Shown here: positions 2,291 to 20,000 of the stretch, in pieces
How positions within the stretch are numbered: position 1 is the stretch's first letter
Layout of the letters: each line of letters begins with the position of its first letter
Origin: an uncultured virus (IMG/VR IMGVR_UViG_3300025018_000154)
Taxonomy: Duplodnaviria; Heunggongvirae; Uroviricota; Caudoviricetes
Virus record (IMG/VR): IMGVR_UViG_3300025018_000154
Strand: one strand, 5' to 3'
Length of the DNA: 20,000 bases
Position numbers and translations under genes: made by a program
Notes under the pieces: model-generated
The model's input: only the letters and a program-made list of their open reading frames with translations
The model's database searches: none
What the model was told of the DNA's origin: nothing

Positions 2291-2692
2291 TCAGTCGTGG
2301 GTGCCGCGCACGTGTTCGATGGCCTTTCCCGGCGCGGCCGTGCGCCAGTCGGGCCAGTCGCGCAGCTCGTTCTTGCCCTGCTTTGCGACGATCATCTCGA
2401 CGGCCTTGGCGGCCACCTGATCGAAAGGCAGGTTCGGGTTGGCCGCCGAGATCGCGCGGGTCAGCCCGTCGATACCGAGGATCGCCACGTCGGTCCACTC
2501 TTCGGCGGCCTCCATGTGGGTGTGGAAGTCGGGCTCTTCGCCCGGGTTGCCGTCGTTCTCGGCGTAGACCTTGGCGACCTCGCGCAGCTCCTTGCCTACG
2601 TGGTCGATCACGCCCTCGGTGCGCGGACCCGGGCCGAACGTGGCGCGGGAGAACGCCGCTTGGCGGGTCAGGTGGGTGACAAAATCAGTCAT
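2291..2692 (-). CDS. DUF550-family dATP/dGTP pyrophosphohydrolase (MazG-like)
   Basis: FSRATFGPGPRTEGVIDHVGKELREV...EEWTDVAIL...KNELRDWPDWR...AIEHVR signature. Confidence 0.85.
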   Translation of the reverse strand: MTDFVTHLTRQAAFSRATFGPGPRTEGVIDHVGKELREVAKVYAENDGNPGEEPDFHTHMEAAEEWTDVAILGIDGLTRAISAANPNLPFDQVAAKAVEMIVAKQGKNELRDWPDWRTAAPGKAIEHVRGTHD

Positions 2693-3599
2693 CGTCTTGC
2701 TCCTTCAGCATGGCTTCGATGTCGGTCCAGCGGTGACGGACGCCACGCAGCAGGGCCTTGTTCTCGCGCTCCTTCTCCTGCGCCCGGGACCATGCGTCCT
2801 CGTCGATCAGGGGTTGGATCGCGTCTTGGATCAGGGCGACCACGACCGACGGTTCGAGGGCGTCCAGCTCCCAGCTCGTGCGGCCGTGCCGGGCGATGTA
2901 GTCGGCGGCGCGCGAGTCGGTGATCTTGGCTGGGTTGGGCGGCGGCCGGTAGCGGTCGATCTGGTCCCGGTTGAGGGCGATGCGGTTGACCTCGACGCGC
3001 TCCCCGGCGAACAGACCGAGCCGGTCGTGGTTGTCCCGGGTCATGTCGATCCCCGAAGGGTCGTGGTCGCCAAGGTGGATCACCAGCGGGGTCTTCCCGT
3101 TGTCAATCTGCGCTTGGAACCGCTTACCGGAGCGGTAGGCTTCCGAGGCGGACAGGTAGCCCTTGCAGGCCATGTAGGGCACCCGGAGCGGGCCGCACGC
3201 GCGCTGGACCACGTTCGAGAGGGCTTCCTTCTCGACCCAGACCTCGACGTAGTAGTCCTGCTCGGCCCAGAAGTCGGCGGCATACTCGCTCGGGAGGTCA
3301 CGCAGAATCTCGTCGATGCTCTCTTCGATCAGCCACGGCTTGACGCCCCGGCCGCGATCCTCGATCCCGTCCCACGGCAGCAGCCCGGCCATGCGGGCGT
3401 CCGTGACGAGCCCACCGAGGCGCTTGTAGCTCTTCTCGCTGTTCTCGATGATGTCCCGGGAGACGAACTGGTAGTAGAGCTGGCGCAGGGTCAGGACGTA
3501 GCCCTGCCCCTCGTAGTCCGTGATGATGTCCTCGGCCAGCTCGATCAGGCGCTTGGAGTCTCCCCGGAAGTTCTTCTCGACGAATTGCTCGTAGTGCAT
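2685..3599 (-). CDS. Topoisomerase VI subunit A / Spo11-like TOPRIM protein (Mini-A type), no B subunit in window
   Basis: TLRQLYY (winged-helix catalytic Tyr), VEVWVEKEAL, KGYLSAS, HLGDHDPSG (DxD), RIALN, WELDAL. Confidence 0.8.
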   Translation of the reverse strand: MHYEQFVEKNFRGDSKRLIELAEDIITDYEGQGYVLTLRQLYYQFVSRDIIENSEKSYKRLGGLVTDARMAGLLPWDGIEDRGRGVKPWLIEESIDEILRDLPSEYAADFWAEQDYYVEVWVEKEALSNVVQRACGPLRVPYMACKGYLSASEAYRSGKRFQAQIDNGKTPLVIHLGDHDPSGIDMTRDNHDRLGLFAGERVEVNRIALNRDQIDRYRPPPNPAKITDSRAADYIARHGRTSWELDALEPSVVVALIQDAIQPLIDEDAWSRAQEKERENKALLRGVRHRWTDIEAMLKEQDDD

Positions 3600-4059: not shown

Positions 4060-5202
4060 TTACCACTCGGCCAGATCGAGCAGGTTGCCGCCCCGGCGCT
4101 CGACGCCCACGCGGTCGTCCTGATTCTTGATAGACTTGGCGTAGGCGGTCACGCCGGTCACGGCATCCCAGAGGGTTTCGATGGGGCGGCTCTCTTCCCG
4201 CAGGTGGGCTTCCTTCGCGCCGTTGATCTCGGCCATCGTGAACTTCCGGTCCTTCAGGAACTTCGTCAGGTCGTCGTCCACGCGCTTCTGCTGCGCGATC
4301 TGGATGGTCTTCTCGACCGGCGCGGCCGCTGCGTTGGCGTAGTCCTTCAGGACCGGCACGATGTTCTCCATCCAGCGGTCAGGGGCACCGCTCGTGTGGC
4401 GCAGCCTGATCTCCTTGAAGCCCTGCGCGCCCCAGACGATCCGGTTGGAGCAGGCGTAGTCGAAGAGGAAGAACGCGGCCCCGAGGGACTGGCTGCCGAC
4501 CTCGGAGTTCCAGACGAAGAAGCCCCGGGCGAGCGACCCGCCCTTGCCGTCACGGCGGTTGTCCATCTCGACACGGTTGGTCTCGTCCGCAAGGAAGATG
4601 AACATATCGCGGTCGGATGCGTAGAGCGTGGTGTTGTCCTTCGTGATGTTCACCTGCTGGCCGAACTCGCCCGGCACCCGGAAGTCCCCGGTGCGGCCGT
4701 CACCGAATTTGCCCATGAGCATACCGATGATGTCGTTGTTCCAGACGCGGCCGTAGTTCGGGCCGGTGGCGGCGCGGAGCTGCACGTGCTGGCCGACCTG
4801 CGAGAAGTCTTCGCCCGGCGCGGTGATGTCCACGTCGTTCACGGTGCGCAGGACGCCGATCTCCTGCACGTCGCGGTGAAACTGCATCCCGTAGTTGAGG
4901 GCGTCAGCGGCGAGCGGTGCGGGCAGCTTGCGCAGGTAGGAGGCCGGGGCACTGACGAGCGAGGCGAGCTGACCGAACGAGTAGTGCGTCGGGTCGATGT
5001 AGCCGTTGGAGCCTTCGATGGTCAGGCCGCGAGTCGGGTTGGCGGGATGGGGCGTGAAGCGCACCTTGCGGTTCGTGATGACGTTCTCGACCGAGTTCTC
5101 ACGGCTGGCGTCTGCCATTGCCTTCATCGACGGGAGGTCCAGAAAACGCTCGTCGGCCGGGCGCTTCATCCACTGTTCGCTGCACTGCATAAGGGTAGTC
5201 AT
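4060..5202 (-). CDS. DUF932-family protein, 380 aa
   Basis: QWMKRPADERF, LRAATGPNYGRVWN, TTLYASDRDMFIFL, RGFFVWNSEVGS, ACSNRIVWG, TLWDAVTGVTAYA. Confidence 0.85.
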   Translation of the reverse strand: MTTLMQCSEQWMKRPADERFLDLPSMKAMADASRENSVENVITNRKVRFTPHPANPTRGLTIEGSNGYIDPTHYSFGQLASLVSAPASYLRKLPAPLAADALNYGMQFHRDVQEIGVLRTVNDVDITAPGEDFSQVGQHVQLRAATGPNYGRVWNNDIIGMLMGKFGDGRTGDFRVPGEFGQQVNITKDNTTLYASDRDMFIFLADETNRVEMDNRRDGKGGSLARGFFVWNSEVGSQSLGAAFFLFDYACSNRIVWGAQGFKEIRLRHTSGAPDRWMENIVPVLKDYANAAAAPVEKTIQIAQQKRVDDDLTKFLKDRKFTMAEINGAKEAHLREESRPIETLWDAVTGVTAYAKSIKNQDDRVGVERRGGNLLDLAEW

Positions 5203-5262
5203 GAGCTTGAGTCCTTTTCAAAGGGGTTCTGCTGGACCGGAGCTTCGTGCCCCGGTGACAGA

Positions 5263-5291
5263 CAGATAGACTACCCCCGGTGGACAATCAA
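5263..5291 (-). promoter_or_regulatory. putative phage promoter TTGATT-N17-TATCTG (copy 1)
   Basis: TTGATTGTCCAC...GTC-TATCTG; same element at 10153-10181 and 11976-12004; A-tracts upstream. Confidence 0.7.
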
Positions 5292-5331
5292 GTGGTCATG
5301 ACCAACTTTTTTCCAAACCATCTGGTTTTTC

Positions 5332-5403: not shown

Positions 5404-8400
5404 TTACCCGCAGGAAGACCAACCGCAATCCACGCAGGAAGAGCACCCACTTTCCCGCTTGAAATTGTAGCCGCCGCAGTTCGGACAGGGCTTCCCCTTG
5501 ACCTCGAAAGCCATCTCCGGGATGGGCATCTCGGCCAGAGAGGGGTCAACCCGGAGCGCCTTGACCGGCTTGGTGATTCCCCCAACGTCCATGTGTTCGA
5601 GCAGCTTGGTCCCGATGGCCGCGAGCGTGGAGGGCTGGTAGCCCCGCTTGCCCCAGAAGCCGCCGGTCGAGGACGAGTGGATGCGCCTGAAGTCCTCCGC
5701 GATGAAGCGGGCCTCGCCCCGGCGCATCACGGCCGAGACCGTCCGGGCGATCCCGACCATCCATTCGTCGTGCGCCGGGTCGCTCGACCGCAGGAATATC
5801 TCGAAGGGCCGGGTGACGCCGTTCTCTGTGATGTCCGAGACGGTCAGGTAGACCGCCTTGTTCGAGCCGACCTTGATCTTGTAGGTCGTCCCGGACAGGG
5901 CCTCGGGTCGCTGGATCAGGTCGCCCTCGTCCCGGTCGAGTTCGAGGTTGGCCTTGGCAAAGCTCGCGGCCTGCGCCTCGATCTCTTCCGGGGACATCTC
6001 GTATTCCCGGGCTGCCTCGATCAGCTCGTCCAGATCGGGCTTCTCTTCCTTCGGGGGATCGACGGACAAGACGGAGCCCGTGACATCGTTCGGCCGGTAG
6101 GTCGTGCAGCCCTTGCAGCCCGTGTCATACGCCTGATCGTAGACTGCCTTGAAGTCCTCGAACGAGATGTCCTCCGGGCAGTTGATCGTCTTCGAGATCG
6201 ACGAGTCCACGTGGCGCTGGGCGGCTGCCTGCATGATGACGTGCTCGTGCGGCTTCAGCTCTTGGGCCGTCACGAAGTAGTCGGGCAGGGGCTCGTCGCC
6301 ACGCAGCTCGCGCCAGAGCTGGACGGCATAGTCCACGACCTCTTCCTCGGTGCGCGTGCCGTCCTTCTGCAAGACCTTGCGCTTGTAGGCGAGGGCGAAG
6401 ACCGGCTCGATCCCGGAGGACACGTTGCCAGCGTAGAGCGAGATCGTCCCGGTCGGCGCGATGCTGGTCAACAGGGCGTTGCGGATGCCGTGCTCGCGGA
6501 TCGCGGCCTTCACGTCGTCAGGCATGGTCGAGGCGTGGGTGCCGTCGGCAAGGAACTTGTCGGCATCGAAGAGCGGGAACGCCCCCTTCTCCTTTGCCAG
6601 CTCGACCGAGGCCCGGTAGGCTTCCACGTCGATCAGGCGCATCCACTTGTCCAGCCGCTCGGCAGCCTCTTCCGTGCCATAGCGCAGGCGGACCATCATG
6701 AGTGCGTCGGCCACGCCGGTCACGCCCAGCCCGATCCGGCGCTTGTTCTCGGCCTCTTCCTTCTGCTGGGGCAGCGGGAAGTTCGAGACATCGACCACGT
6801 TGTCCATCATGCGGACGGCCGTGTGGACGAGCTTCTTCAGGCGGTGGGAATCGAGCCCGGCGTTGTCCGCGAACGGCTTGTCGATAAGCCGGGCCAGATT
6901 GATCGAGCCGAGCAGGCACGCGCCGTAGGGAGGCAACGGCTGTTCGCCGCAAGGATTCGTAGCGGCGATGGTCTCGACGTAGTTGAGGTTGTTCGCCTTG
7001 TTGATCCGGTCGATGAAGATCACGCCGGGCTCGGCATAGCCGTAGGTGGATCGGAGAATCGTGTCCCAGAGTTCTCGGGCGTTGACGACCCGGTGGACGT
7101 AGCGCGGCAGGCCGTCTCCGTCCCGGCCGGTGCTCCCCAGATGATCCAGAATCTCGGTATTCAGGCCAGAGTGCGGGCCGGTAGCAGGCGGCTCGACATG
7201 GACAAGAGGCCAGTCTGCATCCGACCGAACCGCCTTCATGAAGTCGTCTGTCACCAGCACGCTCATGTTGAACATGCGCAGGCGCGCGGCGTCCTGCTTG
7301 GCGGTGATGAAGTCTTCGATGTCCGGGTGGTCGCAGCGCATGGTCGCCATCATGGCTCCCCGTCGTGATCCTGCGGACATGACCGTTCGGCACATGGCGT
7401 CCCAGCAGTCCATGAAGGTCAGCGGGCCGGAGGCGTCCGCGCCGAGCTTCTTGACCAAGGCACCCTTCGGCCGGATCGGGCTGAAGTCGTAGCCGATGCC
7501 CCCGCCCTGCTGCATGGTCAGAGCCGCTTCCTTCAGCATCGAGAAGATGCCGTCCATCGAGTCGGGGATCGTCCCCATCACGAAGCATTGCCCCGTGTGG
7601 ATGCCGAGATCGAGTTGCACCGAATCCGTCGAAAGAACACGAGGACAATAGACCGGCTCCGGGTCCGCATACGACCCAATCTCGATAACTTCCCAGCCGG
7701 GTTCCGACGCCACGAAGTTCGCAAGATGCTTGGCAAGAAGGAAGTCATCTTCGGTCATCGTCCAGCGGTGGAAGCCGACATTGAACAGCGGTTTGTTGCG
7801 AGGCCCAAGATTGGTCTTCGTAGGTTGCGCCGTAGCGAAGGAAACCTCCATCCCGGCAATCGCACCGAACTTGCGAAGCCATGCGAGTTCTTCTTCCCCG
7901 CAGGAAAGAATGGCCTTCATATCACGGGCACAAACGCTGCCATCCGTGGCGAGCCAGCCACGAAGAAAGCCCGTGAGGTATTCGACATTGTGGGTGATCG
8001 AAGACGGGAGAGCCTTCAGATCAAGACGAATACCCGTAAGACGAACGAGGGGGTCCCCGTCGAAACTGGGCGGTTCCGTAATAGCGACACCCGGATGCGA
8101 ATCGAAGAACTCGATAAGATCAGCCTTGTCCCCGCAGAGGCGGATACGGAACGAACGAAGGCCCTCGGTGTTGGTGGATTCCAAAGAGCCATCACCGTAG
8201 ATCAGGCCGTGGGCAACTCCGAGACGGTAGGACGGGCAGTCTTCGACTTCCTTACGGCGGACGAACTTCAACTTGTCCCCAGCGGCGAGTTGTTCTGTGG
8301 TTTTCTCAGAACCGTCGGCCATGACCCAGCGATGCCCAGCAGTCGCCCGGATCGTCTTGCGCTTCCGACGATTATATCCGCCTGCGAGAATGACATTCGC

Positions 8401-8799
8401 CACGGGCTGTTCTCCGAACGAGTTGATCGGAGCAGCAATCCATTCGCCGTTCCCGTCGAGAACATGGACGTTCATGCCCGCGATCTCGCCAATCTGCACG
8501 AGGCCGTGTTCTTTCGTCAGAATCGTCGTGTCGGCAGCGAGGCAGTTGAACAAGGTCACACTGCGCCCGGTGCCCGCGCCTGCGGTGATCCGCCCGGCGG
8601 GGAGATACTGGAAGTCTTCGAGCGCCTTGTAGAACTCGTCCTCGCGCTCGATGTCGAGCCCTTCCGGCTCGGCCAGCGCCCCGGCGATCCTGCGCCACGT
8701 GTCCTCGACGGTCTGGTCAACCGGCGTGCCGTGGTTGTCCTTCAGGCGGTATTTCATATCCCAGATTTGCTCGGAGATAGGAGCAGAGAAGCGTGTCAT
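5404..8799 (-). CDS. nrdJ: class II (AdoCbl-dependent) ribonucleotide reductase with intein, C-terminal TSCPD-like and Zn-ribbon domains
   Basis: [81 protein letters not shown]...[10 protein letters not shown]. Confidence 0.96.
7588..8544 (-). mobile_element. 319-aa intein with LAGLIDADG homing endonuclease in nrdJ, ending in Gln
   Basis: Starts [10 protein letters not shown] (Cys86); ATAGHRW block [10 protein letters not shown] and [12 protein letters not shown] motifs; PVYCP block F; ends GIHTGQ/C; codon usage differs from the exteins. Confidence 0.92.
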
Positions 8800-8832: not shown

Positions 8833-9042
8833 CTACGCCATATGTAGCGGTCGGGACAGCTTCAGTTCATCCAGCGCCTCGTCAACGTCGAGAGGCCAGA
8901 CCGACCAATCCAACCGCTCCGCAGAGATCAGGTGAATAGGCATCCCGCGCCGGATGGGGGCGACGGGTTTCTCGGCGCACGCCTTGCAGAGCCCGTCGTC
9001 ATCACGGCGGGCTCTGCGGGCGCAAGATCGGCACTTCTTCAA
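8833..9042 (-). CDS. small Zn-finger protein (CRSC...CKAC), 69 aa, probable TTG start
   Basis: TTG overlaps the HD gene stop (TTGA); two CxxC pairs. Confidence 0.6.
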   Translation of the reverse strand: MKKCRSCARRARRDDDGLCKACAEKPVAPIRRGMPIHLISAERLDWSVWPLDVDEALDELKLSRPLHMA

Positions 9043-9563
9043 GGCTGAATCCGTGCGAGCTGAAGCAGCTCCTTCAGGCGGTCTTCCGAGATCGGCGGCA
9101 TGGGCTTGTTCCACGGGGCCGGGGCGTTGCCGAAGACCCAGAGCCATTCGACCGTCTCGGCCGCCTTGTCATACTGGTGGACCAGCTCTCGGGTAGATCG
9201 GGCCGGGTAAGCGCGCCCCCGGGCCGCGCAGATCGCCCGGTCGAGGCCGTCTTCGATCCGGTGGAGCACGTTGGTTTCGTAGGAGATCAGCGACTTGATC
9301 GGACCCGGAATGTCCCCGGTGATCGCCTCATGGTCGTCGTGGTGCAGGCACCAGTCGATGACCTCTTCCCGTTCGTTCATCTCCTGCGCCAGTAGGGCGA
9401 CGAGATGGCGGTGCTGGTGGACGGTCAGCGCCCTCGGGTCGTTCGACCAGCGGTGCATGATCCGCAGGCGATCCTCGATAGCCCGTAGGTCGATCTGACC
9501 GGGGCAGGGGTTCATGATGTCGCGAATCAAAGACTTCCCGACTTGGAGGCAGTAGACCTTCAT
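9039..9563 (-). CDS. HD-domain 5'-deoxynucleotidase / dNTP hydrolase (YfbR/YfdR-like)
   Basis: HRW...TVHQH...CLHHDDHEAITGDIPGPIK...YDK; ATGA overlap at 9560-9563 (alternative start 9569). Confidence 0.8.
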   Translation of the reverse strand: MKVYCLQVGKSLIRDIMNPCPGQIDLRAIEDRLRIMHRWSNDPRALTVHQHRHLVALLAQEMNEREEVIDWCLHHDDHEAITGDIPGPIKSLISYETNVLHRIEDGLDRAICAARGRAYPARSTRELVHQYDKAAETVEWLWVFGNAPAPWNKPMPPISEDRLKELLQLARIQP

Positions 9564-9907
9564 TTCCATTCCTTCAGAGCTGCGAAAGCCGCGCCGCAGC
9601 CCTCTTCGTCAACTTGCGTTTGAATGTCCTTCATCGCCTTATCCACGGCCGCCTTCAAGGCGTGGTGGAGCCAGAAGCCGATCCTGCGGCCCGTGGAGTG
9701 GCCCCCTGCACCCAGATAGGTCATGTCGGTGTAGTAGTAGCGGCCGACCTCCGAGGTCGCGTTGAGTGCGGCCTTCGCGGCGTCCATGTTGGCGTAGTCG
9801 ATGGGGCCGGAGAGAGACTCGGGGGTCTTGTGGTAGTCCCAGACCTCGCCCTTGTATTCCAGCAGCTTGCCGTCCATCGGGCCACCGATGATAAGTCCTC
9901 TGTTCAT
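9560..9907 (-). CDS. hypothetical protein with IGGPMDG motif, 115 aa
   Basis: ATGA coupling on both sides; GGPxDG motif common in small phage proteins. Confidence 0.75.
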   Translation of the reverse strand: MNRGLIIGGPMDGKLLEYKGEVWDYHKTPESLSGPIDYANMDAAKAALNATSEVGRYYYTDMTYLGAGGHSTGRRIGFWLHHALKAAVDKAMKDIQTQVDEEGCGAAFAALKEWK

Positions 9908-12821: not shown

Positions 12822-12894
12822 AAATTTTGAACGGGCCAGACTCCCGAAGTAGTGGCGAAAAAATTTTGAACGGGCCAGACTCCCGAAGTAGTGG
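12822..12894. repeat. perfect 34-bp direct repeat x2 (AAATTTTGAACGGGCCAGACTCCCGAAGTAGTGG)
   Basis: 12822-12855 and 12861-12894, 5-bp spacer. Confidence 0.95.
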
Positions 12895-13016
12895 AGCGGC
12901 GGGTCCGTGCGCTTGCAGGTAGAACTCTTGATCCGGGCGCACCGTTCCCTCTCGCGGGTGGATCGGCCGCGCGATTCGCAAGATTCCGCCGTTCACGGGA
13001 CGTTCCGGGAACATCG

Positions 13017-13092
13017 CAACCCATTGGAATCGTTGACGGAATCCGGCCCCCCGGGGGCGATCGCACGCGGAACGGCCCGCAACCCGTTGAAA
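13017..13092. promoter_or_regulatory. two IHF-like sites (CAACCCATTGGAA, CAACCCGTTGAAA)
   Basis: Resemble YAANNNNTTGATW; at 13017 and 13080. Confidence 0.4.
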
Positions 13093-13134
13093 CTAAACGG
13101 TTTTTCGCGTTCCGGGGGCGAAAACCGCCCGCCG

Positions 13135-13420
13135 GGCCGCGATCCGGGCCAGCTCGGCCGCCGGGGGCGAGGGCGAGGGCCGCCAGCTCGGCCGCGATCC
13201 GGGGCGAGGGCGTGGGCCAGCTCGGCCGGGCGTCATGAGGGGGCGAGGGCCGCCAGCTCGGCCGGGCGTCATGAGGGCCGCCAGCTCGGCCGCCGTGGGG
13301 CCGCCTTCAGCTCGGCCGGGGGCGAGGGCGTGGGGCCGCCTTCAGCTCGGCCGGGGGCGAGGGCGTGGGGCCGGGCGGACGTGCGAACGCCCCCGGCGGG
13401 CGGCCGAGGGCGTGGGGCGG
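13135..13420. repeat. left G-rich modular repeat block (AGCTCGGCC x7, GGGCGAGGG, GTCATGAGGG)
   Basis: Non-coding; same word set as 19375-19950. Confidence 0.85.
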
Positions 13421-13422
13421 AT

Positions 13423-13448
13423 ATGAAAACGCCCCCGGGCCGGGGGCG
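13423..13448 (-). terminator. intrinsic terminator ending the island operon
   Basis: CGCCCCCG-3 nt-CGGGGGCG followed by TTTTCAT on the minus strand, just after the stop at 13463. Confidence 0.65.
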
Positions 13449-13462
13449 CGGGGGCGTGGGTT

Positions 13463-13681
13463 TCAACGGCGGCCGGTTTTTCGGTCTAACTCTTCAGACG
13501 GCCCTGGCCGGGCCAGATAGGTGACGCCCGCGACAAGGGCGAAGGCGAGGGCGTGCGGGGGTCCTTTCCAGAATAGCGCGACGGCGGCCGCGAGGGCGAA
13601 GGCGAGGCAAAGGAAACGGGCCGCGCCCTCGGCCGCCATATGCCCCCGCAACCGGGCGCGCGTTCGGTTGCGTTCCGTCAT
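13463..13681 (-). CDS. small two-helix membrane protein, 72 aa
   Basis: ATGA overlap; FLCLAFALAAAVALFW and ALAFALVAGVTYLA. Confidence 0.7.
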   Translation of the reverse strand: MTERNRTRARLRGHMAAEGAARFLCLAFALAAAVALFWKGPPHALAFALVAGVTYLARPGPSEELDRKTGRR

Positions 13682-14814
13682 GCCGGGAACCGTTCAACGC
13701 CCGCGCCCTCGCAAAATGCCGCCCGGGCGTCCGCGTCCGGGTAGAAAATGAAGGGCGACTCGTCGCCTTCAGCAAGGCGGGCACGCTCGGCCATAAGCTC
13801 GGCCCGGGCCGCCAGCTTGCCCCGGATCGCCTCGCAAAAAATAGCGTGAGTCCGGGGCATTTCCTCGGCCGTTGCCGCGTGCAATCTGTTTTGACGCAAT
13901 GCCGCCAAAACCTCGGCCCGGATCGCCGCGAGGCGTTCGCCCGCGTCCGCCCACGCGGAACCGGCCCCCCATGCGGTTTTATATTCCCGTTCCGCCTCGG
14001 CCACGGTTTCGGCCATGCTATCGGCCCGGCGGGCGCAATCCTCGGCCGCCTCTTCAGCGTCCGACTCCTCGCGGCCCTCGGCCACAACGGCGGCCCGCAT
14101 GTCGAATTGCGCGCCCCCTTGGCAATCGTCGCCTAACCGCCAGCCCGGAACAAAAACCGCCCGGCCGTCGCGCCCGCGCAACTGGCCCACGACTCCCACG
14201 ATAAGCCCGGAACCGTCGCGGAACGACTCGCCGTGCGGGTTGTCATAATATCCCGTATGGCCGAGGCGGGCGAGGGCGTGGGCGTCGCGGATATTGCGAA
14301 CCGTGCCGCCGTCATAAAGGGCGAAGAATTGCCCGCCCTTGTCGCCCGCCGCCATATGCCGGGGGCCGCCCTCGCCTTGCCAGAATCCCGCGCCATAATC
14401 CGGCCCGGGGGCCGCGCATAGATTGCGAAGGCGGGCAACCTCGGCCCGGGCGCGGGCGTGCCGCCGTTCGGCCATGTCATAGGCCCCGGCGGCCGCCGTT
14501 ACCGCTTGCGCGGCCGCCTCATATGCCGGGCCGCCCTCGCGGGCCAGCGATTGCGCCGCGAGCTTTGCCGCGTTCGATTCCTCGCGGGCGTGATCGCGGG
14601 CGACGGCCGAGTCTTCATACTCGGCCCGGGCGTCGCGGAACGCGGCAAGGTTCGCCCGCGCCTTGTGCAAGGCATAGGCGGCCGCGCCTTTCCCGTCATG
14701 GGGCGAGTCGTATCGCTGGCCCATGAAGGCGGGCAAGGGCGCGGCCGTCTGAAGGGCGGACGCGGGGGCCGGGAACGTCCGGGCGCGGGCAAAGGCGGTT
14801 GCGAGGTTTTCCAT
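13678..14814 (-). CDS. Ala-rich hypothetical protein, 378 aa (MENLATAF...)
   Basis: SD GAAGGA before ATG 14814; globular core HTGYYDNPHGESFRDG...VGQL...FVPGW between helical segments. Confidence 0.8.
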   Translation of the reverse strand: MENLATAFARARTFPAPASALQTAAPLPAFMGQRYDSPHDGKGAAAYALHKARANLAAFRDARAEYEDSAVARDHAREESNAAKLAAQSLAREGGPAYEAAAQAVTAAAGAYDMAERRHARARAEVARLRNLCAAPGPDYGAGFWQGEGGPRHMAAGDKGGQFFALYDGGTVRNIRDAHALARLGHTGYYDNPHGESFRDGSGLIVGVVGQLRGRDGRAVFVPGWRLGDDCQGGAQFDMRAAVVAEGREESDAEEAAEDCARRADSMAETVAEAEREYKTAWGAGSAWADAGERLAAIRAEVLAALRQNRLHAATAEEMPRTHAIFCEAIRGKLAARAELMAERARLAEGDESPFIFYPDADARAAFCEGAGVERFPA

Positions 14815-14910
14815 AGTGAGTCCTTCAGGTTGTGCCCCGGGGGGCGGGTTGTCGCCTCTCATGAGGGCGGGAACGGGGGCGGGTTGTCCGCCCCCTAACC
14901 GGCCGTCACG
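14815..14910 (-). repeat. conserved structured intergenic element, copy A
   Basis: TGACGGCCGGTTAGG-hairpin-TTCCCGCCCTCATGAGAGGCGACAACCCGCCCC..GGGGCACAACCTGAAGGACTCAC-ATG. Confidence 0.85.
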
Positions 14911-15028
14911 CCTTGCGGGCGTAGTATATCCAACGGCCCCCGGGCGATTGCCGCCGGGCGTTGTCAGAATTGCGGAGTCCGCCCCGTTGCCGCCAGCTCG
15001 CGGCCGTGATGCGAGTCCAGCCGGTCAC
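14906..15028 (-). CDS. small protein, 40 aa (MTGWTRITAASWRQRGGLRNSDNARRQSPGGRWIYYARKA), not in ORF track
   Basis: GTG overlaps the upstream TGA (GTGA); fills the gap to element A exactly. Confidence 0.6.
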   Translation of the reverse strand: MTGWTRITAASWRQRGGLRNSDNARRQSPGGRWIYYARKA

Positions 15029-15174
15029 GCCTTGCACGCTCGCGAGCTGGCGGCATATGAGGCGGACGAGTCGGCCGCGTTATATTCCCGGGCGAGGCGG
15101 AACGCCTCGGCCATTGTCTCGGCCGAGTCCACGGTTTCAACGTCGCGGCCGTCATGGCGATTCACGTATGGCAT
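15025..15174 (-). CDS. small protein, 49 aa (MPYVNRHDGRDVETVDSAETMAEAFRLAREYNAADSSASYAASSRACKA), not in ORF track
   Basis: SD GAAAGGACTCACA-ATG, the same type of leader as neighbouring genes. Confidence 0.75.
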   Translation of the reverse strand: MPYVNRHDGRDVETVDSAETMAEAFRLAREYNAADSSASYAASSRACKA

Positions 15175-15228
15175 TGTGAGTCCTTTCCTGAAGGGGGGCC
15201 GCCCGGATCGCCCGGGCGGCCGGTTGCG

Positions 15229-17148
15229 TTAGGCGTGGGCGCGGGTTTCGGTTGTATCGGCCGGGGCCAGCTCGGCCACGCCTAACCGTTCCGCAAGGGC
15301 GGAAACCTCGGCCCACGCGATCCGGTGGCAACCGGCCCGGAATCCGCCGTCGGATTCTACCCGGTCAATTCGGAATTGCCCGACAGGAAGAGTCCGGCCG
15401 TTCGCTTGCCACGCCTCGCCCTTGTCGCGGCACGCCTTCAGGAACCGGAACGCCCGCAAGGCGTGGGCGAGGGGCACGCGCGCCCCTTGCGAGGTTTCCA
15501 GCTCGCCCCCCGTGATCGCCCCGGCCGCGTCGCGTTCGACTCCGTTCGCCCGGATATAGGCGGAACCGTCGGGCAAGGCGCGGGGCGTATGGCGGGCCAG
15601 CTCGGCCGGAACGCGGCCGCCGTCGCGCCATATCCGCAACGCCTCGGCCCGGGCGCGTTCGGTTTCCTCGGCCGCGATCCGGGCAAGCTCGGCCCGTTCG
15701 GTTTTCTCGGCCGCCTTCAGCTTGTCCGCCAGCTCGCGGAACCGTTCGGGAGTCCATCCGGCAACGGCCCACGCCCCCGGGATAGGGTAAAGCGAACCGG
15801 GGCGGAAACCGGCCGAGGCATAACGCCCGGCCGCGCGCGCGCCCTCGGCCATAAGGGCGGCCCGTTCGCCCGGGTTGCCCTCGCCCGCCGGGATTGTCAC
15901 GGCCGCCCGGATTGCCGCCAGCTCGCGACGGCGGGCGGCCCGGGTTTCCGCCTTGCGGCAATCGTCGCCCACGGAGTCCAGCTCGGCCGCCAGCGTATGA
16001 AGGCGGGCCGCCAGCTCGGCCGGGTTGTGCCCCGCGATCCGGGCCGCCGGGGCCGCCCATGCGCCGCGCATGTCATCCGCCGGGATAAGGGCGGCCGCCA
16101 GCTCGCGCGCCTTATCCGCGCCCCGGTCAATATCATATGCGCCCCCGGGCCGGTTGCCGCCCGTTACCTTGACTCGAACCTCGCGCCCCTCGCGGAACGC
16201 CTCGGCCACGCGGACGCCCTCGCGAACGCCCGCAACCCGGCCTCGCCAGATTGCGAGTCGGTTCGCCCTCATGTCCGCCGCGTCAAAGGCGGGCAACGTG
16301 GCCCGGATCGCGGCCCGGACGGCGGACGCCTTGCGAACGCGGGCCACGTGCCCGGCCGCCTTGCCCGCCTTCATTGCGCGCAATATCTCGCGGCCCACGC
16401 TTTCCCATTGGCCCGACTCATATGCGACGGCCCCGCCCTTGCCCGCAACCCGGCGGGCGTCCGCCGTCATACGTTCCACAACCTCGGCCGGATTCGTCCG
16501 GGCGAACCTTGCGAGGGCCGCCAGCTCGGCCCGGGTTTTCGCCTTTGCCTTTTCAACGGCGGCACGCTCGGCCGCCTTGCCCGCCTTTGCCACAATGGCG
16601 GCCGCCCGCCGTTCCGGGTTGTCCGCTTGTGCCGCCTTCAAAACCTCGGCCACGCTGGCGGCAATGTCCGCCCGGCCCTCGGCCGAGGCGTTGCGCGGAT
16701 CGCCGGGCAGGTTGTCCGGTTTCGCAAAATGCGCGGCAAGGCGCGGCACGGCATAGCGGGCAACCTCGCGGGCGTTCGGTTCGCCATATTCCGACGGGAA
16801 ACAACCGGGATTCAGACGGGGCGAGGCATTGCGCAAGGCGTCCGCCAGAATCTCGGCCACGGGATTCAGGTTCGGAATCCAAACGCGGCCCCGGTGGCGG
16901 GTTGCGCTTGCCGCGTTTGAAACGTGCCGCGAGGTTGAAACGGAATAGGAGTCCGCATTGATAAGGGCGACGCCCACGCCCGCCGGATTGCCCGGGGCCG
17001 GGGCCAGATACGCCGCGACATAATGGCGGCCATATGAATAAAGGGCGCGGCCCTCAAAAAATAGATTCCCGTTATGCGAACGCCCCGACTCTTGCGAGAA
17101 TTGCGCGAAAACATGGGCTGTCATAGCGTTGTCAAATACCGTTGCCAT
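15229..17148 (-). CDS. large Ala/Arg-rich hypothetical protein, 639 aa
   Basis: Globular N-terminus (FEGRALYSYGRHY...INADSYSVSTSRH) and C-terminus (ETSQGARVP...VGQFRIDRV...AGCHRI); SD GAAGGA. Confidence 0.85.
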   Translation of the reverse strand: MATVFDNAMTAHVFAQFSQESGRSHNGNLFFEGRALYSYGRHYVAAYLAPAPGNPAGVGVALINADSYSVSTSRHVSNAASATRHRGRVWIPNLNPVAEILADALRNASPRLNPGCFPSEYGEPNAREVARYAVPRLAAHFAKPDNLPGDPRNASAEGRADIAASVAEVLKAAQADNPERRAAAIVAKAGKAAERAAVEKAKAKTRAELAALARFARTNPAEVVERMTADARRVAGKGGAVAYESGQWESVGREILRAMKAGKAAGHVARVRKASAVRAAIRATLPAFDAADMRANRLAIWRGRVAGVREGVRVAEAFREGREVRVKVTGGNRPGGAYDIDRGADKARELAAALIPADDMRGAWAAPAARIAGHNPAELAARLHTLAAELDSVGDDCRKAETRAARRRELAAIRAAVTIPAGEGNPGERAALMAEGARAAGRYASAGFRPGSLYPIPGAWAVAGWTPERFRELADKLKAAEKTERAELARIAAEETERARAEALRIWRDGGRVPAELARHTPRALPDGSAYIRANGVERDAAGAITGGELETSQGARVPLAHALRAFRFLKACRDKGEAWQANGRTLPVGQFRIDRVESDGGFRAGCHRIAWAEVSALAERLGVAELAPADTTETRAHA

Positions 17149-17248
17149 ATCGTGAGTCCTTCAGGTTGTGCCCCTATCCGGGGCGGGTTGTCGCCTCTCA
17201 TGAGGGCGGGAAGGGCGGCCCGTGGGGGCCGCCTAACCGGCCGTCACG
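17149..17248 (-). repeat. conserved structured intergenic element, copy B
   Basis: Same linkers as copy A; hairpin stem/loop sequences differ. Confidence 0.85.
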
Positions 17249-18092
17249 TGACGGGATGGAACCGGGCCAGAATTGCGGCCACGTCGCCCGCTAGGGCCGT
17301 TTCCAGTATCTCGGCCGCGTCCGCCGCGTGATTGCGGGCGGTATCGGAGTCGCCATAATGGGGCGCGCGGATCGCCGCGAGGGCCGCCCGCATTGCCTCG
17401 CGGGCCGCGTTGCGTTCGCTTTCCATGTCCGCCAGCTCGCGAACGGCCGCCGTGCGGGCGTCGGTTGCCTTGTCGGTTTCCTCGGCCCCGAGTCTCTTCA
17501 GCTCGGCCCCGTTGTTCCCGCCCGGGGCGGCCGCGTCGCTGGTGGCATGATAAAACGCCCCGGGCCGGGCATGGAAAACCGCGCGCCATGCGTGCCCGCC
17601 CACGCCCTCGGCCGCGTCGCGGGCGTTAGTCGCGGCATGGTCCGCCAGCACGCCCGCAAGGGCCGCCATTGCGGTTTTCAGGTGCGACGCCTCGCCCTTG
17701 CTAGGCGCGGGGCCGAGGGCGGCCGCGAGGGCGCGGGCGTTGTCCGGTTTCGCGAGGTTTTCCCGGATCGCCTCGGCCGGATTGAGGCGGCCGAGTCCTA
17801 TGTCCGCGAGGGCGCGGCCGAGGTTGTCGGGCGTCGCCTCGCGGATAAGGCGGGCCAGCTCGGCCGCCGGGGGCATTGCCTCGCGTTCGGCACGCTGGCG
17901 GGCGTTGAGTCCGTCAACCTCGGCCGCGAGGCGGGAAAGCTCGGCCAGTGCGATCCGGGGGCCGTCGCCCGTTCCATCCTGAAGGGCCGCGACAAGGGCG
18001 GGCATAATCCCGGCCCACGTGGGCGCGATATTGAGAGTCGCGGCCGTGGGCGAGCTATCGGCCGGGCCGGTCAATTTGATTCGGGTTTCCAT
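17244..18092 (-). CDS. Ala-rich helical hypothetical protein, 282 aa (METRIKL...)
   Basis: SD GAAAGG before ATG 18092; IAPTWAGIMPALVAALQDGT...AELSRLA segment. Confidence 0.8.
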   Translation of the reverse strand: METRIKLTGPADSSPTAATLNIAPTWAGIMPALVAALQDGTGDGPRIALAELSRLAAEVDGLNARQRAEREAMPPAAELARLIREATPDNLGRALADIGLGRLNPAEAIRENLAKPDNARALAAALGPAPSKGEASHLKTAMAALAGVLADHAATNARDAAEGVGGHAWRAVFHARPGAFYHATSDAAAPGGNNGAELKRLGAEETDKATDARTAAVRELADMESERNAAREAMRAALAAIRAPHYGDSDTARNHAADAAEILETALAGDVAAILARFHPVT

Positions 18093-18093
18093 G

Positions 18094-18207
18094 TTATAAC
18101 CTTTCCAGAATTGCCGCGAACGCGGGCAGGTAAGAGATTGAGGCATAAAGGGCGGCCCCGATTGCGGCGAAGGCGAGTCCGTCGCGGATAAGCCCGGGGC
18201 GGTTCAA
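18094..18207 (-). CDS. small membrane peptide, 37 aa (MNRPGLIRDGLAFAAIGAALYASISYLPAFAAILERL), not in ORF track
   Basis: TTG overlaps the upstream TGA; ends 1 nt before the next ATG; one hydrophobic helix. Confidence 0.55.
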   Translation of the reverse strand: MNRPGLIRDGLAFAAIGAALYASISYLPAFAAILERL

Positions 18208-19229
18208 CGGTTCGCCCACGTGCAAAGGGCCATGAGGGCGGCAACGCCCCCGGCATATGCCGCGACGGGATAGGCGAGGGCGAAGGCGCGGGCGGTTTCG
18301 ACATAGGAGTCCAGCGTGCCCGGGGCCGCGTGAAAATGCCCGGCGGCAATCTCGGCCGAGGCGGGCGAGGCGAGGGCGAGGGCCGCGAAGCCGGCGGCAA
18401 CGCCCGCCCGGGCCAGAGTCCAGCGTCCGCCGGGCTGGCGGGTTGCGACAACCTCGCGGGCGTCCGGGGCCATATCGGCCGCCAGCTCGGCCACGGTTTC
18501 GCCGTCCGCCGTGGCAATCGCAAGGGCGAGGCGTTGCCCCTCGGCCGTCATGGGGGCGCGATACTCGGCCGGGCGAACCTGAAGGGCGAAGGCGGCCGCC
18601 AGCTCGGCCGGGATTGCGCCCGCCTTCAGCTCGGCCACGTGGGCCACGATACGCGCCCGGGCCGCCAGCTCGGCCGCCTCGCGTCCGGTTGCGGTTGCGA
18701 TCCGGCGGGCCAGCGAACGCCCGGCGGATTCAAGGGCGGGCACGCTGGCCCGCATGGCGGCCGCCATGACGGCGGAAACCTCGGCCGGGGCCACGGGGGC
18801 CAGCTCGGCCGCAAGGGCGGCACGGCGGGCGGCCCGGATCGCGCGGCACGTTGCGGACGCCTTGAACGTGGCAAAGGTTGCCGCCTCGGCCGTTTCACGG
18901 TTCGCAATCTCGCGGGCGAGGGCGCCGCGTTCCTCGGCCGCCAGCTCGGCCGCCGTCATATCCGACAACCCGGCCCCGGCCCGGACATAGGCGCGAACCT
19001 CGCGGGCCACGGCGGCCCCCGTGGGCGATCCGGCAAAGGTTGCCACGGTTGCGCCATTGATTGCCGCCAGCGTGAAAAGCCCCCGGCCGAGGTAAGGGCG
19101 GGAAAGCGTCGCGGCCGGTTCGCCCTCGGCCGTGCATAGAGTCGCGTGGGTTTCATTGTCCGCCATGACGCGCGCCCGGGGGGCGAGGGGGGCGAGGTTT
19201 TCAAGGCGGGCGGTTGCGAGGTTTTCCAT
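18204..19229 (-). CDS. Ala-rich hypothetical protein, 341 aa (MENLATAR...), C-terminal hydrophobic segments
   Basis: First gene after the 19314-19341 promoter; SD GAAGGA. Confidence 0.8.
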   Translation of the reverse strand: MENLATARLENLAPLAPRARVMADNETHATLCTAEGEPAATLSRPYLGRGLFTLAAINGATVATFAGSPTGAAVAREVRAYVRAGAGLSDMTAAELAAEERGALAREIANRETAEAATFATFKASATCRAIRAARRAALAAELAPVAPAEVSAVMAAAMRASVPALESAGRSLARRIATATGREAAELAARARIVAHVAELKAGAIPAELAAAFALQVRPAEYRAPMTAEGQRLALAIATADGETVAELAADMAPDAREVVATRQPGGRWTLARAGVAAGFAALALASPASAEIAAGHFHAAPGTLDSYVETARAFALAYPVAAYAGGVAALMALCTWANR

Positions 19230-19267
19230 ATTGCGAGTCCTTCAGGTTGTGCCCCGGGGGGCGGGTT
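19230..19267 (-). repeat. 3' part of the intergenic element, copy C
   Basis: AACCCGCCCCCCGGGGCACAACCTGAAGGACTC identical to copy A. Confidence 0.85.
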
Positions 19268-19313
19268 TCGGGGCCAGCGGGCGAATCGCCACGCCGCAAC
19301 CCCTTGCCCCCGG

Positions 19314-19341
19314 ATTATACATGCGCGGCCGCCATTGGCAA
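19314..19341 (-). promoter_or_regulatory. sigma70-like early promoter TTGCCA-N16-TATAAT
   Basis: Perfect -10 in very GC-rich DNA, at the head of the island operon. Confidence 0.7.
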
Positions 19342-19396
19342 CCCACGGGCCACAATGCGCGAACGCGCCCGGCGGGCCGTCATGAGGGGGGCACGT

Positions 19397-19470
19397 GGGC
19401 CATGCGATCCGGGGGCCATGCGATCCGGGGGCCATGCGATCCGGGGGCCATGCGATCCGGGGGCCATGCG
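19397..19470. repeat. 16-bp tandem repeat GGGCCATGCGATCCGG x4.6
   Basis: CATGCG at 19401, 19417, 19433, 19449, 19465. Confidence 0.95.
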
Positions 19471-19694
19471 CCAGCGGGAGTCGCATGGCGGGCACGCTCG
19501 GCCGAGGGGGGCACGGGATAGGGGCGGAACCGTGGGCGGGATTCCATCTGGCGGAATTGAGGGGGGCGAGGGCGTGGGCCGGGGGCCGGGTTGCGGGGCG
19601 TGGGCCAGCTCGGCCGAGGGGGCGAGGGCGGGGGCGTCATGAGGCGGGGCCAGCTCGGCCGCGTCGCCCGGCATGGGGGCACAAGGCGAGGGGG

Positions 19695-19746
19695 CGGAAC
19701 CGTGGGCCGGAACCGTGGGGCGGAACCGTGGGCCGGAACCGTGGGC
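19695..19746. repeat. 13-bp tandem repeat CGGAACCGTGGG(C/G) x4 (fifth copy at 19525)
   Basis: Starts at 19695, 19708, 19721, 19734. Confidence 0.95.
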
Positions 19747-19853
19747 GTGCCCGGGCTGGCGGGCGTGGGGCCAGCTCGGCCGAGGGCGGGGCCGTCATGA
19801 GGGGGCCGGGGCGCGTGCCCGGGGGGCCGTCTATCGGGGGGCCGTGGGGGCCA

Positions 19854-19949
19854 GCGTTCCCGCCTTTACCGCCGTTCCCGTGGGGCGAGGGGGCGGGCAA
19901 TCATGGGGGCCGTGGGGCGGGCGTTCCCGACGTTACCGCCGTTCCCGTG
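19854..19949. repeat. 29-bp imperfect direct repeat GCGTTCCCGnnnTTACCGCCGTTCCCGTG x2
   Basis: 19854-19882 and 19921-19949, each preceded by GGGGGCCGTGGGG. Confidence 0.85.
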
Positions 19950-20000
19950 ACCGCTCGGGTCCTCCCCCGCCTGCTGGGTCGTCCGGGGGGTGCGCGGAGC

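What the first reader, a model, noticed from the sequence alone, without database searches (positions are those of the whole stretch)
12950..19950. Sharply bounded ~7 kb island written in a restricted DNA vocabulary: candidate defence-invisible first-injected segment
Seen (manual counts, 13.1-19.95 kb): GCAG/CTGC ~2 times, GACC/GGTC ~6, CACC/GGTG ~5, GATG/CATC ~6, GTAG/CTAC ~3. The GC-rich words would be expected dozens of times each, and all are abundant in 1-12.9 kb. Genes comply with odd codons for such GC-rich DNA (TAT, CAA, CTT). Several of the banned words (GACC, GGTC, CTCC, CTGC, GGTG, GGAG) reappear in the last ~50 nt, so the right edge is ~19,948. One promoter-to-terminator operon reads inward from that edge. 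Established: T5 first-step-transfer DNA is poor in restriction sites, and adenine-containing words like these occur in many type I/IIG/III and BREX targets. Inference: a genome end or terminal repeat purged of whole classes of sites and encoding unknown takeover or anti-defence proteins.
Basis: partly seen in the sequence, partly recalled or inferred. Interest (0 to 1): 0.9.

Follow-up and report, generated by a model that had tools for sequence, protein, structure and literature searches.

The report
Word-purged early operon of a phage
A 7 kb early-gene block of an environmental phage has been almost emptied of about twenty short DNA words that fill the rest of the genome, most likely so that host DNA-cutting defences cannot recognise it before the phage has made its first proteins.

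Summary
Between about 12,990 and 19,948 the window has GC 0.72 against 0.63 to the left. GCAG/CTGC occurs 2 times against 173 in the left 12.9 kb, and a third of the expected distinct 6-mers are missing. The depletion affects both strands and the non-coding parts. It survives a null that keeps every protein and every codon count (52 observed, 313 expected). The island is one minus-strand operon, from a near-consensus sigma-70 promoter (19,341-19,314) to a terminator (13,449-13,429). It encodes six proteins of no known family, upstream of the nucleotide-metabolism genes of a siphophage syntenic with Synechococcus virus S-ESS1. Homologous blocks in S-ESS1, Erythrobacter phage R16L, a 97% metagenomic relative and 14 further contigs show the same kind of island. 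All are 3-14 times enriched in GAGTC/GACTC. Six-base palindromes are avoided genome-wide, so the island adds only the asymmetric-word purge. Best reading (about 0.5): selection against defence recognition words is concentrated on early-exposed DNA, a principle shown experimentally for T7-like and T5-like phages. A genome end or terminal repeat is not supported. Contigs run on past 20,000, contig depth is not doubled, and true termini could not be mapped.

The parts
12825..12894 (+). Two exact 31-nt copies (12,825-12,855 and 12,864-12,894, 39-nt period) just outside the inner edge of the island. The element is conserved in S-ESS1 and in the 97% relative. It is a candidate control element of the next (middle) operon.
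   Evidence: 2 matches, 0 expected in 200 shuffles; also found in L001 and L008; one search shows the S-ESS1 copy
12990..13428 (.). Non-coding inner flank of the island, written in the restricted vocabulary. It holds four overlapping tandem arrays with periods of 34-42 nt (13,148-13,460).
   Evidence: public contigs break here in 4 of 4 runs
13429..13449 (-). Terminator-like hairpin (9-bp stem, 8 G-C pairs, T-rich tail) that closes the operon
13463..13681 (-). 72-aa hydrophobic protein, the last gene of the operon
   Evidence: no family above Pfam's cut-off
13678..14814 (-). 378-aa protein (phrog_8188, function unknown). Its start is MENLATA. The AlphaFold model shows long helical hairpins plus a small beta domain.
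   Evidence: no PDB fold match (best Foldseek E 0.026, TM 0.2)
14813..14920 (-). Copy 1 of a repeated intergenic unit: GC hairpins followed by the ribosome site AAGGACTCAC and ATG
   Evidence: (family D16: 14,813, 17,149 and 19,230)
15025..15174 (-). 49-aa ORF with the same AAGGACTCAC ribosome site
   Evidence: no Pfam family
15229..17148 (-). 639-aa protein (phrog_7247, E 1.8e-63), conserved over its full length in 12 aligned homologues. It has an N-terminal beta domain, a long helical middle and a C-terminal alpha/beta domain.
   Evidence: no Pfam, NCBIfam or PDB sequence match; fold searches gave only generic helical matches
17149..17243 (-). Copy 2 of the repeated intergenic unit
17244..18092 (-). 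282-aa helical protein (300 aa if it starts at 18,146); the N-terminus matches phrog_22670
18204..19229 (-). 341-aa Ala-rich protein with a hydrophobic C-terminus; first gene of the operon; starts MENLATA
19230..19267 (-). Copy 3 of the repeated unit (leader and ribosome site of the first gene)
19314..19341 (-). Sigma-70-type promoter TTGCCA-16-TATAAT (11 of 12 matches)
19342..19948 (.). Non-coding outer flank in the restricted vocabulary. It holds a 16-nt repeat x4.6 (19,397-19,470), a 13-nt repeat x4.3 (19,691-19,746) and a 61-nt repeat x2 (19,822-19,949). The edge at 19,948 is a mosaic junction in natural populations.
   Evidence: loose ends at 19,947 (run X3) and 19,920 (run X23)
12990..19948 (.). 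The whole island. GC is 0.72. About 20 asymmetric 4-mers are depleted 5- to more than 50-fold on both strands. GAGTC/GACTC occurs 34 times (4.9 per kb against 1.2 per kb on the left).

Best explanation
The island is the host-RNA-polymerase-driven early operon of a siphophage related to S-ESS1-type (Casjensviridae) phages, probably one that infects alphaproteobacteria. Its double-stranded sequence is kept under strong and continuing selection against a set of short asymmetric words. These words have the size and shape of type I half-sites and of type III, IIG and BREX cores. This DNA must survive and be transcribed while no phage counter-defence protein yet exists. The rest of the genome is protected later, either by products of this operon or by later entry. 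That rest therefore needs only the genome-wide avoidance of 6-bp palindromes (type II sites). Shown here: the purge itself, its independence from protein and codon composition, its strand symmetry, its maintenance in recent evolution, its conservation among relatives, and the early-operon anatomy. Inferred: that nucleases are the selecting agent, that the segment is exposed first, and that its proteins are counter-defence or takeover factors. The GAGTC enrichment may reflect use of a word that is always methylated in these hosts (a subset of the CcrM target GANTC). That is an inference only.
For: (1) 15 words occur 52 times against 313.5 expected (minimum 268 of 300) when proteins and codon counts are kept. 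(2) Both orientations are depleted, and non-coding parts have 3.5 per kb against 116 per kb, so the constraint acts on duplex DNA and not on RNA or protein. (3) Synonymous choice moves towards both A/T (TAT, CAA, GTT) and G/C while GC3 falls from 0.88 to 0.77. That is word avoidance and not a one-way mutation bias. (4) Continuing constraint: the 288 substitutions separating the window from a 97% relative make 41 banned-word differences, against 143 +/- 11.5 (minimum 112 of 500) for random substitutions of the same spectrum. (5) The whole phage avoids 6-bp palindromes: median observed/expected is 0.10 for 31 palindromes in the left region and 0.19 for 19 in the island, against about 1.0 for non-palindromes. 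CCGCGG, GGGCCC, GCCGGC and GGCGCC occur 0-1 times in both regions. GTAC occurs 0 times in either region. The phage is therefore demonstrably shaped by restriction. (6) The context-level depletion profile is shared with the island of Erythrobacter phage R16L (Spearman 0.43, n=127) but not with the window's own left region (-0.10). CACC, GACC, ACCC and CATC recur among the most depleted words in 6-9 of 10 further relatives. (7) Anatomy: TTGCCA-16-TATAAT promoter, terminator, and a position upstream of the dNMP phosphatase, RNR and ThyX genes on the same strand. (8) Published experiments: a type I motif (AGAG N6 GTG) restricts Murciavirus only when it lies in the first-injected region (PMC12455610). 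T5-like phages resist type I, II and III systems if the sites lie outside the terminal repeats (PMC10644984, abstract).
Against: No terminus could be mapped, and nothing shows that this segment enters or is exposed first. Contigs continue beyond both edges and contig depth is not doubled. The host and its restriction motifs are unknown, so no banned word is tied to a real enzyme. None of the six proteins matches a known anti-defence family or fold. The restriction also affects GC-only words, and each relative over-uses its own long words, as a repeat-generating process would produce. Some relatives (L061, L039) freely use CTGC/GCAG, so the banned list is not universal. A core shared by phages with presumably different hosts is unexpected if the motifs were strain-specific. 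T5 FST DNA shows no such signature.
Confidence: 0.5

Rival explanations
1. Self-immunity to a nuclease conserved in the lineage. An early phage-encoded (or widely conserved host) endonuclease of low specificity destroys DNA rich in the common mixed words, that is, the host chromosome. This feeds the phage's nucleotide-salvage genes. The DNA that is present while the nuclease acts must lack its target words, as has long been asked of T5 FST DNA during A1-dependent host DNA degradation.
For: A core of banned words is shared by islands of phages from different sources. The banned words are among the commonest mixed words of the rest of the genome. The island's tetranucleotide signature is almost uncorrelated with its own genome (0.17, against 0.84 between the two halves of the left region). 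dNMP phosphatase, class II RNR, ThyX and a dATP/dGTP pyrophosphohydrolase follow directly downstream. The T5 FST region also carries a dNMP phosphatase and the host-DNA degradation gene A1 (annotation).
Against: No nuclease domain or fold was found in any island protein. The rest of the phage genome is full of the words and would need separate protection. The banned list differs among relatives.
Confidence: 0.15
2. Cryptic simplicity by molecular drive. Slippage and short-patch gene conversion among the many dispersed and tandem repeats spread a few favoured words, and the missing words are a by-product without any selecting nuclease.
For: 50 direct-repeat families and 31 inverted pairs lie in 7.5 kb, with tandem arrays at both flanks. 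Long words are hugely over-used (CAGCTCGGCC 23 times; GGCCGAG/CTCGGCC 57 against 11.4 under the codon-aware null). GC-only 10-mers are as restricted as mixed ones. Each relative has its own favourite words. The island diverges faster and in patches (5.2% against roughly 0.1-1.3% in the flank). The substitution test cannot separate conversion from selection.
Against: The proteins are conserved over their full length at 38-70% identity. Conversion between unrelated codons should therefore be selected against, yet words expected 30-50 times from the codons themselves are absent. The context-level profile is shared between islands whose proteins are only about 48% identical. Codon choice changes in both directions.
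Confidence: 0.15
3. A functional motif array. The island is shaped mainly by positive selection for dense GAGTC/GACTC (CcrM-type methylation or protein-binding sites) and other bound words, for example to time early transcription by methylation state or to titrate a host factor. Under this reading the depletion is secondary.
For: GAGTC/GACTC is enriched in the island of the window, of S-ESS1, of R16L and of 15 of 15 further loci (5-14 per kb against 0.5-3 per kb), with no overall strand preference (325 vs 287). In the coding parts it occurs 24 times against 12.2 +/- 2.3 under the codon-aware null. Four ribosome sites embed GACTC. GcrA activates promoters through certain methylated GANTC sites (PMC4647560, passages read).
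Against: 34 sites occupy 170 nt of 6,958 and cannot explain the loss of some 20 unrelated words. The flanks of the sites do not fit the YGAKTCK preference (Y at -1 in 19 of 34, K at +1 in 16 of 34). GATTC/GAATC is not enriched in the window (2.44 against 2.39 per kb).
Confidence: 0.1

Closest known systems
Leading (first-injected) region of Autographiviridae: T7 gene 0.3 region and Murciavirus (PMC12455610)
   Same: It is an early, host-polymerase-transcribed, highly variable segment that encodes unknown or anti-defence proteins. Restriction motifs count only there, and selection is concentrated on that sub-genomic segment.
   Different: In those phages single motifs were lost in a podovirus with proven stepwise entry. 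Here about 20 four-base words are removed almost completely from 7 kb of a siphophage-type genome, entry order is unknown, and no Ocr-like protein is recognisable.
T5/BF23 first-step-transfer DNA (terminal repeat, pre-early genes, injection stop signal)
   Same: It is a multi-kb pre-early block with unknown small proteins, a small membrane protein and repeat arrays at its inner end. Resistance to type I, II and III systems depends on sites lying outside it (PMC10644984 abstract). The homologue of the 639-aa gene lies in phiCbK's 10.3 kb terminal repeat.
   Different: T5 FST shows no comparable loss of vocabulary (650-715 distinct 6-mers per kb in 0-9 kb against 674-757 beyond). The island shows no doubled depth. 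No A1 or A2 relatives were recognised, and the dNMP phosphatase lies outside the island.
Genome-wide avoidance of palindromic restriction sites in phages
   Same: The window as a whole shows it strongly.
   Different: The island adds non-palindromic, strand-symmetric four-base avoidance confined to one operon. The discussion of PMC12455610 says genome-wide analyses found such avoidance uncommon for type I and III systems.
Cryptically simple DNA (scrambled short repeats; concept recalled, no paper read here)
   Same: A few short words are over-used in scrambled order, tandem arrays are present, and the proteins are low-complexity and Ala-rich (24% Ala).
   Different: The region encodes proteins conserved over their full length, and its missing words are partly shared with distant relatives after control for codons.

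Membership tests
Defence-motif-free leading region (T7/Murciavirus type) | The segment is the first DNA to enter, and the genome has fixed ends | not testable with these tools
   Only contigs were available, not raw reads. No whole genome is held. terL is not in the window.
Defence-motif-free leading region (T7/Murciavirus type) | Recognition words are depleted in the segment relative to the rest of the genome, beyond composition | tested here: met
   The actual host motifs are unknown, so this is met at the level of words and not of named enzymes.
Defence-motif-free leading region (T7/Murciavirus type) | Transcribed at once by host RNA polymerase | tested here: inconclusive
   A near-consensus sigma-70 promoter heads the operon. 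No expression data exist, because 0 of the 24 listed runs are on record as RNA.
Defence-motif-free leading region (T7/Murciavirus type) | Encodes anti-defence or takeover proteins | tested here: inconclusive
   Six proteins, none in Pfam or NCBIfam above cut-off. The PHROG families matched have no known function. No convincing fold match was found.
T5-type first-step-transfer terminal repeat | Long direct terminal repeat (double copy number) | tested here: inconclusive
   Contig depths in the island equal those of the flanks in 4 of 4 runs (for example X23: 23.7-28 against 26.5 and 24.2). Depth is one figure per contig and no reads were available.
T5-type first-step-transfer terminal repeat | Pre-early genes A1, A2 and dmp inside the segment | tested here: not met
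   The island proteins matched only PHROG families of unknown function and no Pfam or NCBIfam family above cut-off. The dNMP phosphatase homologue is at 9,039-9,569, outside the island.
T5-type first-step-transfer terminal repeat | Repeat-rich injection stop signal at the inner end | tested here: inconclusive
   Tandem arrays at 13,148-13,460 and a conserved double repeat at 12,825-12,894 occupy the equivalent position. Their function is untested.
S-ESS1-like (Casjensviridae) siphophage | Shared gene order and homologous genes | tested here: met
   The order ThyX, DUF932, RNR, dNMP phosphatase, island genes is the same on one strand in both. The RNR genes share 74% DNA identity. Structural genes are not in the window.

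The most novel reading that the evidence does not exclude
A widespread clade of environmental siphophages, probably of alphaproteobacteria, carries a conserved stealth cassette. It is an early operon rewritten at the level of duplex DNA so that whole classes of asymmetric recognition half-sites are absent. It is built instead from a small set of safe words, including always-methylated GAGTC. It is bounded by repeat arrays that act as entry-pause and control elements. It encodes a new set of counter-defence or takeover proteins. This would mean that combinatorial type I, type III and BREX specificities select against half-sites rather than whole motifs, and that stepwise genome entry is common outside T5 and T7.
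Probability: 0.3. Interest if true: 0.85.

Novelty: new variant of a known kind. Interest (0 to 1): 0.72.

Why it matters
If the reading holds, the island is the clearest genomic footprint so far of defence pressure acting on a sub-genomic, early-exposed segment. It is also far stronger than anything seen in the model phages. It would give a sequence-only way to find first-exposed DNA and candidate anti-defence genes in uncultured phages, by scanning for local collapse of k-mer vocabulary. It would supply six conserved unknown proteins to test. It would also supply a list of avoided words that predicts the recognition repertoire of defence systems in groundwater and marine alphaproteobacteria. 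The conserved GAGTC enrichment links phage early regions to GANTC (CcrM-type) methylation in a way I did not find described in the searches.

Tried and rejected
- **Source record.** An exact 36-mer from the window's end was not found in viral, genome or metagenome contigs. No whole genome is held, and the record behind L008 could not be searched. What follows base 20,000 was therefore not read.
- **Amino-acid or codon-usage explanation.** Rejected.
- **GC-biased gene conversion.** Rejected, because GC3 falls (0.88 to 0.77) while GC1 and GC2 rise.
- **Assembly or sequencing artefact.** Rejected. The same island appears in an independent 97% contig, in 24 runs of 21 studies, and in the isolates S-ESS1 and R16L.
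- **Chi-like oriented motif.** CAGCTCGGCC occurs 23 times on one strand and 0 on the other. Overall strand skew of words equals that of the left region. The word reads Ala-Glu-Leu-Ala in frame, and relatives favour other words. Not pursued as the main explanation.
- **Adenine-only purge.** GC-only 10-mers are restricted too.
- **T5 as a quantitative precedent.** Its FST DNA is not vocabulary-poor.
- **Island at contig ends as evidence of termini.** In 11 of 12 contigs of 45 kb or more, the gene lies within 6.2 kb of a contig end. Public contigs break at the island's repeats in 4 of 4 runs, so this is read as assembly breakage.
- **Doubled depth.** Not seen, but only contig-level depths were available.
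- **Function of the proteins.** For the 639-aa protein: PDB sequence search 0 hits, Foldseek best E 0.31, VIA-align only generic helical matches with Z at most 9.6, and the Atlas returned only viral hypothetical clusters. For the 378-aa protein: best PDB sequence E 0.13 and Foldseek best E 0.026.
- **GcrA motif fit.** The flanks of the GAGTC sites do not fit.
- **Substitutions near GAGTC.** They lie closer than random positions (median 29 nt against 51 nt), but they are clustered in patches, so this is not counted as evidence.
- **Earlier findings of this scan.** None.


Full report
**What is in the window.** All credible genes lie on the minus strand. From 1 to about 12,700 they have ordinary high-GC codon structure (GC3 0.81-0.91). 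They encode ThyX (629-1,546), a dATP/dGTP pyrophosphohydrolase (2,291-2,692) and a protein matching a PHROG family annotated as DNA topoisomerase (2,685-3,599). They also encode a DUF932 protein (4,060-5,202), a class II-type ribonucleotide reductase (5,404-8,799) and a dNMP phosphatase (9,039-9,569). Gene order and sequence match Synechococcus virus S-ESS1, a 60 kb member of the Casjensviridae. At about 13,000, GC jumps from 0.63 to 0.72.

The left 12.9 kb has 173, 210, 124, 143 and 87.
- AAGT and ACAC are absent. About 20 strand-symmetrised 4-mers are down five-fold or more relative to the left region.
- The 6,850-base stretch has 977 distinct 6-mers against 1,445-1,555 in equal lengths of the left region, and 2,889 distinct 8-mers against 5,001-5,318.
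- The edges are sharp. The words thin out between 12,960 and 13,030 and return at 19,949, with nine occurrences in the last 52 bases.

**It is not composition.**
- Permuting synonymous codons among the five larger island genes keeps every protein and every codon count. This gives 313.5 occurrences of 15 words (minimum 268 in 300 trials) against 52 observed.
- Re-drawing codons from the left region's usage gives 393.
- Both orientations of each word are depleted. The 1,446 non-coding bases of the island carry 3.5 per kb against 116 per kb on the left.
- Codon choice moves both ways (TAC to TAT, CAG to CAA, GTC to GTT). Alanine rises to 24% of residues, GC1 and GC2 rise, and GC3 falls.
- This is avoidance of words in duplex DNA. 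It is strong enough to bend both codon use and amino-acid composition.

**Anatomy.** The island is one operon.
- A TTGCCA-16-TATAAT promoter (minus strand, 19,341-19,314; 11 of 12 matches) heads it.
- The genes follow at 18,204-19,229, 17,244-18,092, 15,229-17,148, 15,025-15,174, 13,678-14,814 and 13,463-13,681.
- A strong hairpin terminator at 13,449-13,429 closes it.
- A repeated intergenic unit (GC hairpins plus AAGGACTCAC-ATG) precedes three genes.
- Both non-coding flanks are tandem-repeat arrays written in the same vocabulary.
- Just outside the inner edge lie two exact 31-nt copies (12,825-12,894), conserved in S-ESS1 and in the 97% relative.

**The proteins are real but unknown.**
- The 639-aa protein matches phrog_7247 (E 1.8e-63) and aligns over its full length with 12 homologues at 38-70% identity.
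- The 378-aa protein matches phrog_8188 and has 26 non-identical homologues.
- Neither has a Pfam, NCBIfam or PDB sequence relative.
- AlphaFold models (pLDDT 83 and 76) found no convincing fold match.

**It is a family trait.**
- S-ESS1 (55.1-60.4 kb) and Erythrobacter phage R16L (0.1-6 kb) carry homologous blocks with raised GC and lowered 6-mer diversity. In R16L, ACAC occurs 0 times against 17 expected, ACCG 1 of 68, ACCA 1 of 34, CATC 2 of 47, GACC 3 of 50 and CACC 3 of 47.
- A metagenome contig 97% identical in the 639-aa protein has the same purge: 2-14 banned words per 500 bases inside the island against 48-68 outside.
- Fourteen further loci show milder islands.
- Island-versus-rest 4-mer ratios correlate among five phages at 0.41-0.64.
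- After control for proteins and codons, the window's island still correlates with R16L's island (0.43) but not with its own left region (-0.10).
- The island's tetranucleotide signature correlates with its own genome at only 0.17, whereas the two halves of the left region correlate at 0.84.
- The list is not universal. L061 and L039 use CTGC/GCAG freely, and GGCC, CTAG and CATG go opposite ways in the window and R16L.

**A second hallmark.** GAGTC/GACTC is enriched in every island examined.
- The densities are 4.9, 7.1 and 10.2 per kb in the window, S-ESS1 and R16L, against 1.2-1.6 elsewhere in those genomes.
- In 15 of 15 further loci the density is 5-14 per kb against 0.5-3 outside.
- There is no overall strand preference, and the word is enriched twofold over the codon-aware null.
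- GAGTC is a subset of GANTC, the CcrM target of Alphaproteobacteria (PMC3287173, abstract seen in the listing).

**The constraint is still acting.** Across 5,565 aligned island bases, the window and its 97% relative differ at 288 positions. That is 5.2% divergence, patchy, against roughly 0.1-1.3% in the flank. These differences create only 41 banned-word differences, where random substitutions of the same spectrum create 143 +/- 11.5.

**Context of restriction avoidance.** The whole window avoids 6-bp palindromes.
- Median observed/expected is 0.10 in the left region and 0.19 in the island, against about 1.0 for non-palindromes.
- CCGCGG, GGGCCC, GCCGGC and GGCGCC occur 0-1 times in each region. 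GTAC is absent from both regions counted.
- The phage is therefore visibly shaped by type II restriction everywhere. The island alone adds the asymmetric words.
- This division is what one expects if early products neutralise systems that read asymmetric sites (type I, type III, BREX) but not type II enzymes.
- Experiments in other phages show the principle. [quoted passage not shown] T5-like phages resist type I, II and III systems when sites lie outside the terminal repeats (PMC10644984, abstract).
- Removal at the four-base level would fit avoidance of type I half-sites, which recombine into many specificities. That step is my inference.

**What is not supported.**
- The segment is not shown to be a genome end or a terminal repeat. 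In four independent runs the island is broken into small contigs at its repeats, but a 47.8 kb contig continues past 20,000. The island's contigs have the same depth as the flanks.
- Only contigs were available, so termini cannot be read.
- The outer edge is a mosaic junction. Two runs carry different sequence immediately outside 19,920-19,947.
- In 11 of 12 long contigs the gene lies near a contig end. Assembly breakage at the repeats explains this most simply.
- T5's FST DNA shows no comparable vocabulary loss.
- The restriction also affects GC-only words at 10-mer length. A repeat-spreading process therefore contributes, or may be the whole story. I give that rival 0.15. I also give 0.15 to self-immunity against a lineage-conserved nuclease, and 0.1 to a primarily motif-driven (GAGTC) design.

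**Verdict.** The finding is real, reproducible and unusually strong. The best explanation is a known principle (defence-motif avoidance in early-exposed DNA) in a new and extreme form, in a new phage group, with a new conserved companion signal (GAGTC) and six unknown conserved proteins.

Noticed in passing
window 7,591-8,537 (inside the RNR gene 5,404-8,799, minus strand): An in-frame stretch of about 947 bp lies between the RNR N-terminal domain (residues 7-79) and the barrel (405-901). It has lower GC (0.58) and no Pfam match, and it is absent from the 97% relative L008. It is probably an intein-type insertion.
   Followed up: partly
window 12,825-12,855 and 12,864-12,894: Two exact copies of a 31-nt element lie just outside the island. 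The element is conserved at the DNA level in S-ESS1 (about 55,170-55,250) and in L008, although the surrounding sequence is not. It is a candidate middle-gene promoter or operator, and it contains a GAGTC.
   Followed up: partly
whole window: GTAC is absent from both regions counted (about 43 expected in the left 12.9 kb). CTAG is rare, and nearly all 6-bp palindromes are avoided inside and outside the island.
   Followed up: yes
window 14,813-14,920, 17,149-17,243 and 19,230-19,267: A repeated intergenic unit: two GC hairpins with ACAA loops, then CCTGAAGGACTCAC-N-ATG. Two genes begin with the same seven residues, MENLATA.
   Followed up: partly
window 12,990-18,575 against L008 1-5,745: The island is 5.2% diverged from its closest relative, against roughly 0.1-1.3% for the adjacent genes. 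Replaced patches lie at 14,990-15,240 and 13,740-13,990. Substitutions lie nearer to GAGTC sites than random positions do (median 29 nt against 51 nt), but they are not independent of one another.
   Followed up: partly
L008 9,039-9,811 against window about 9,663-9,681: The relative carries about 770 bp that the window lacks, between the dNMP phosphatase gene and the next ORF.
   Followed up: no
window 19,397-19,470, 19,691-19,746 and 19,822-19,949: Three different tandem repeats (16 nt x4.6, 13 nt x4.3, 61 nt x2) lie upstream of the early promoter. They are iteron-like, so they may be binding sites of a regulator or an origin.
   Followed up: no
runs X1-X24: The stretch is held nearly complete by 24 runs of 21 studies labelled aquifer, groundwater, hot-spring and cold-spring metagenomes. 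The phage is therefore widespread in subsurface and spring waters.
   Followed up: no
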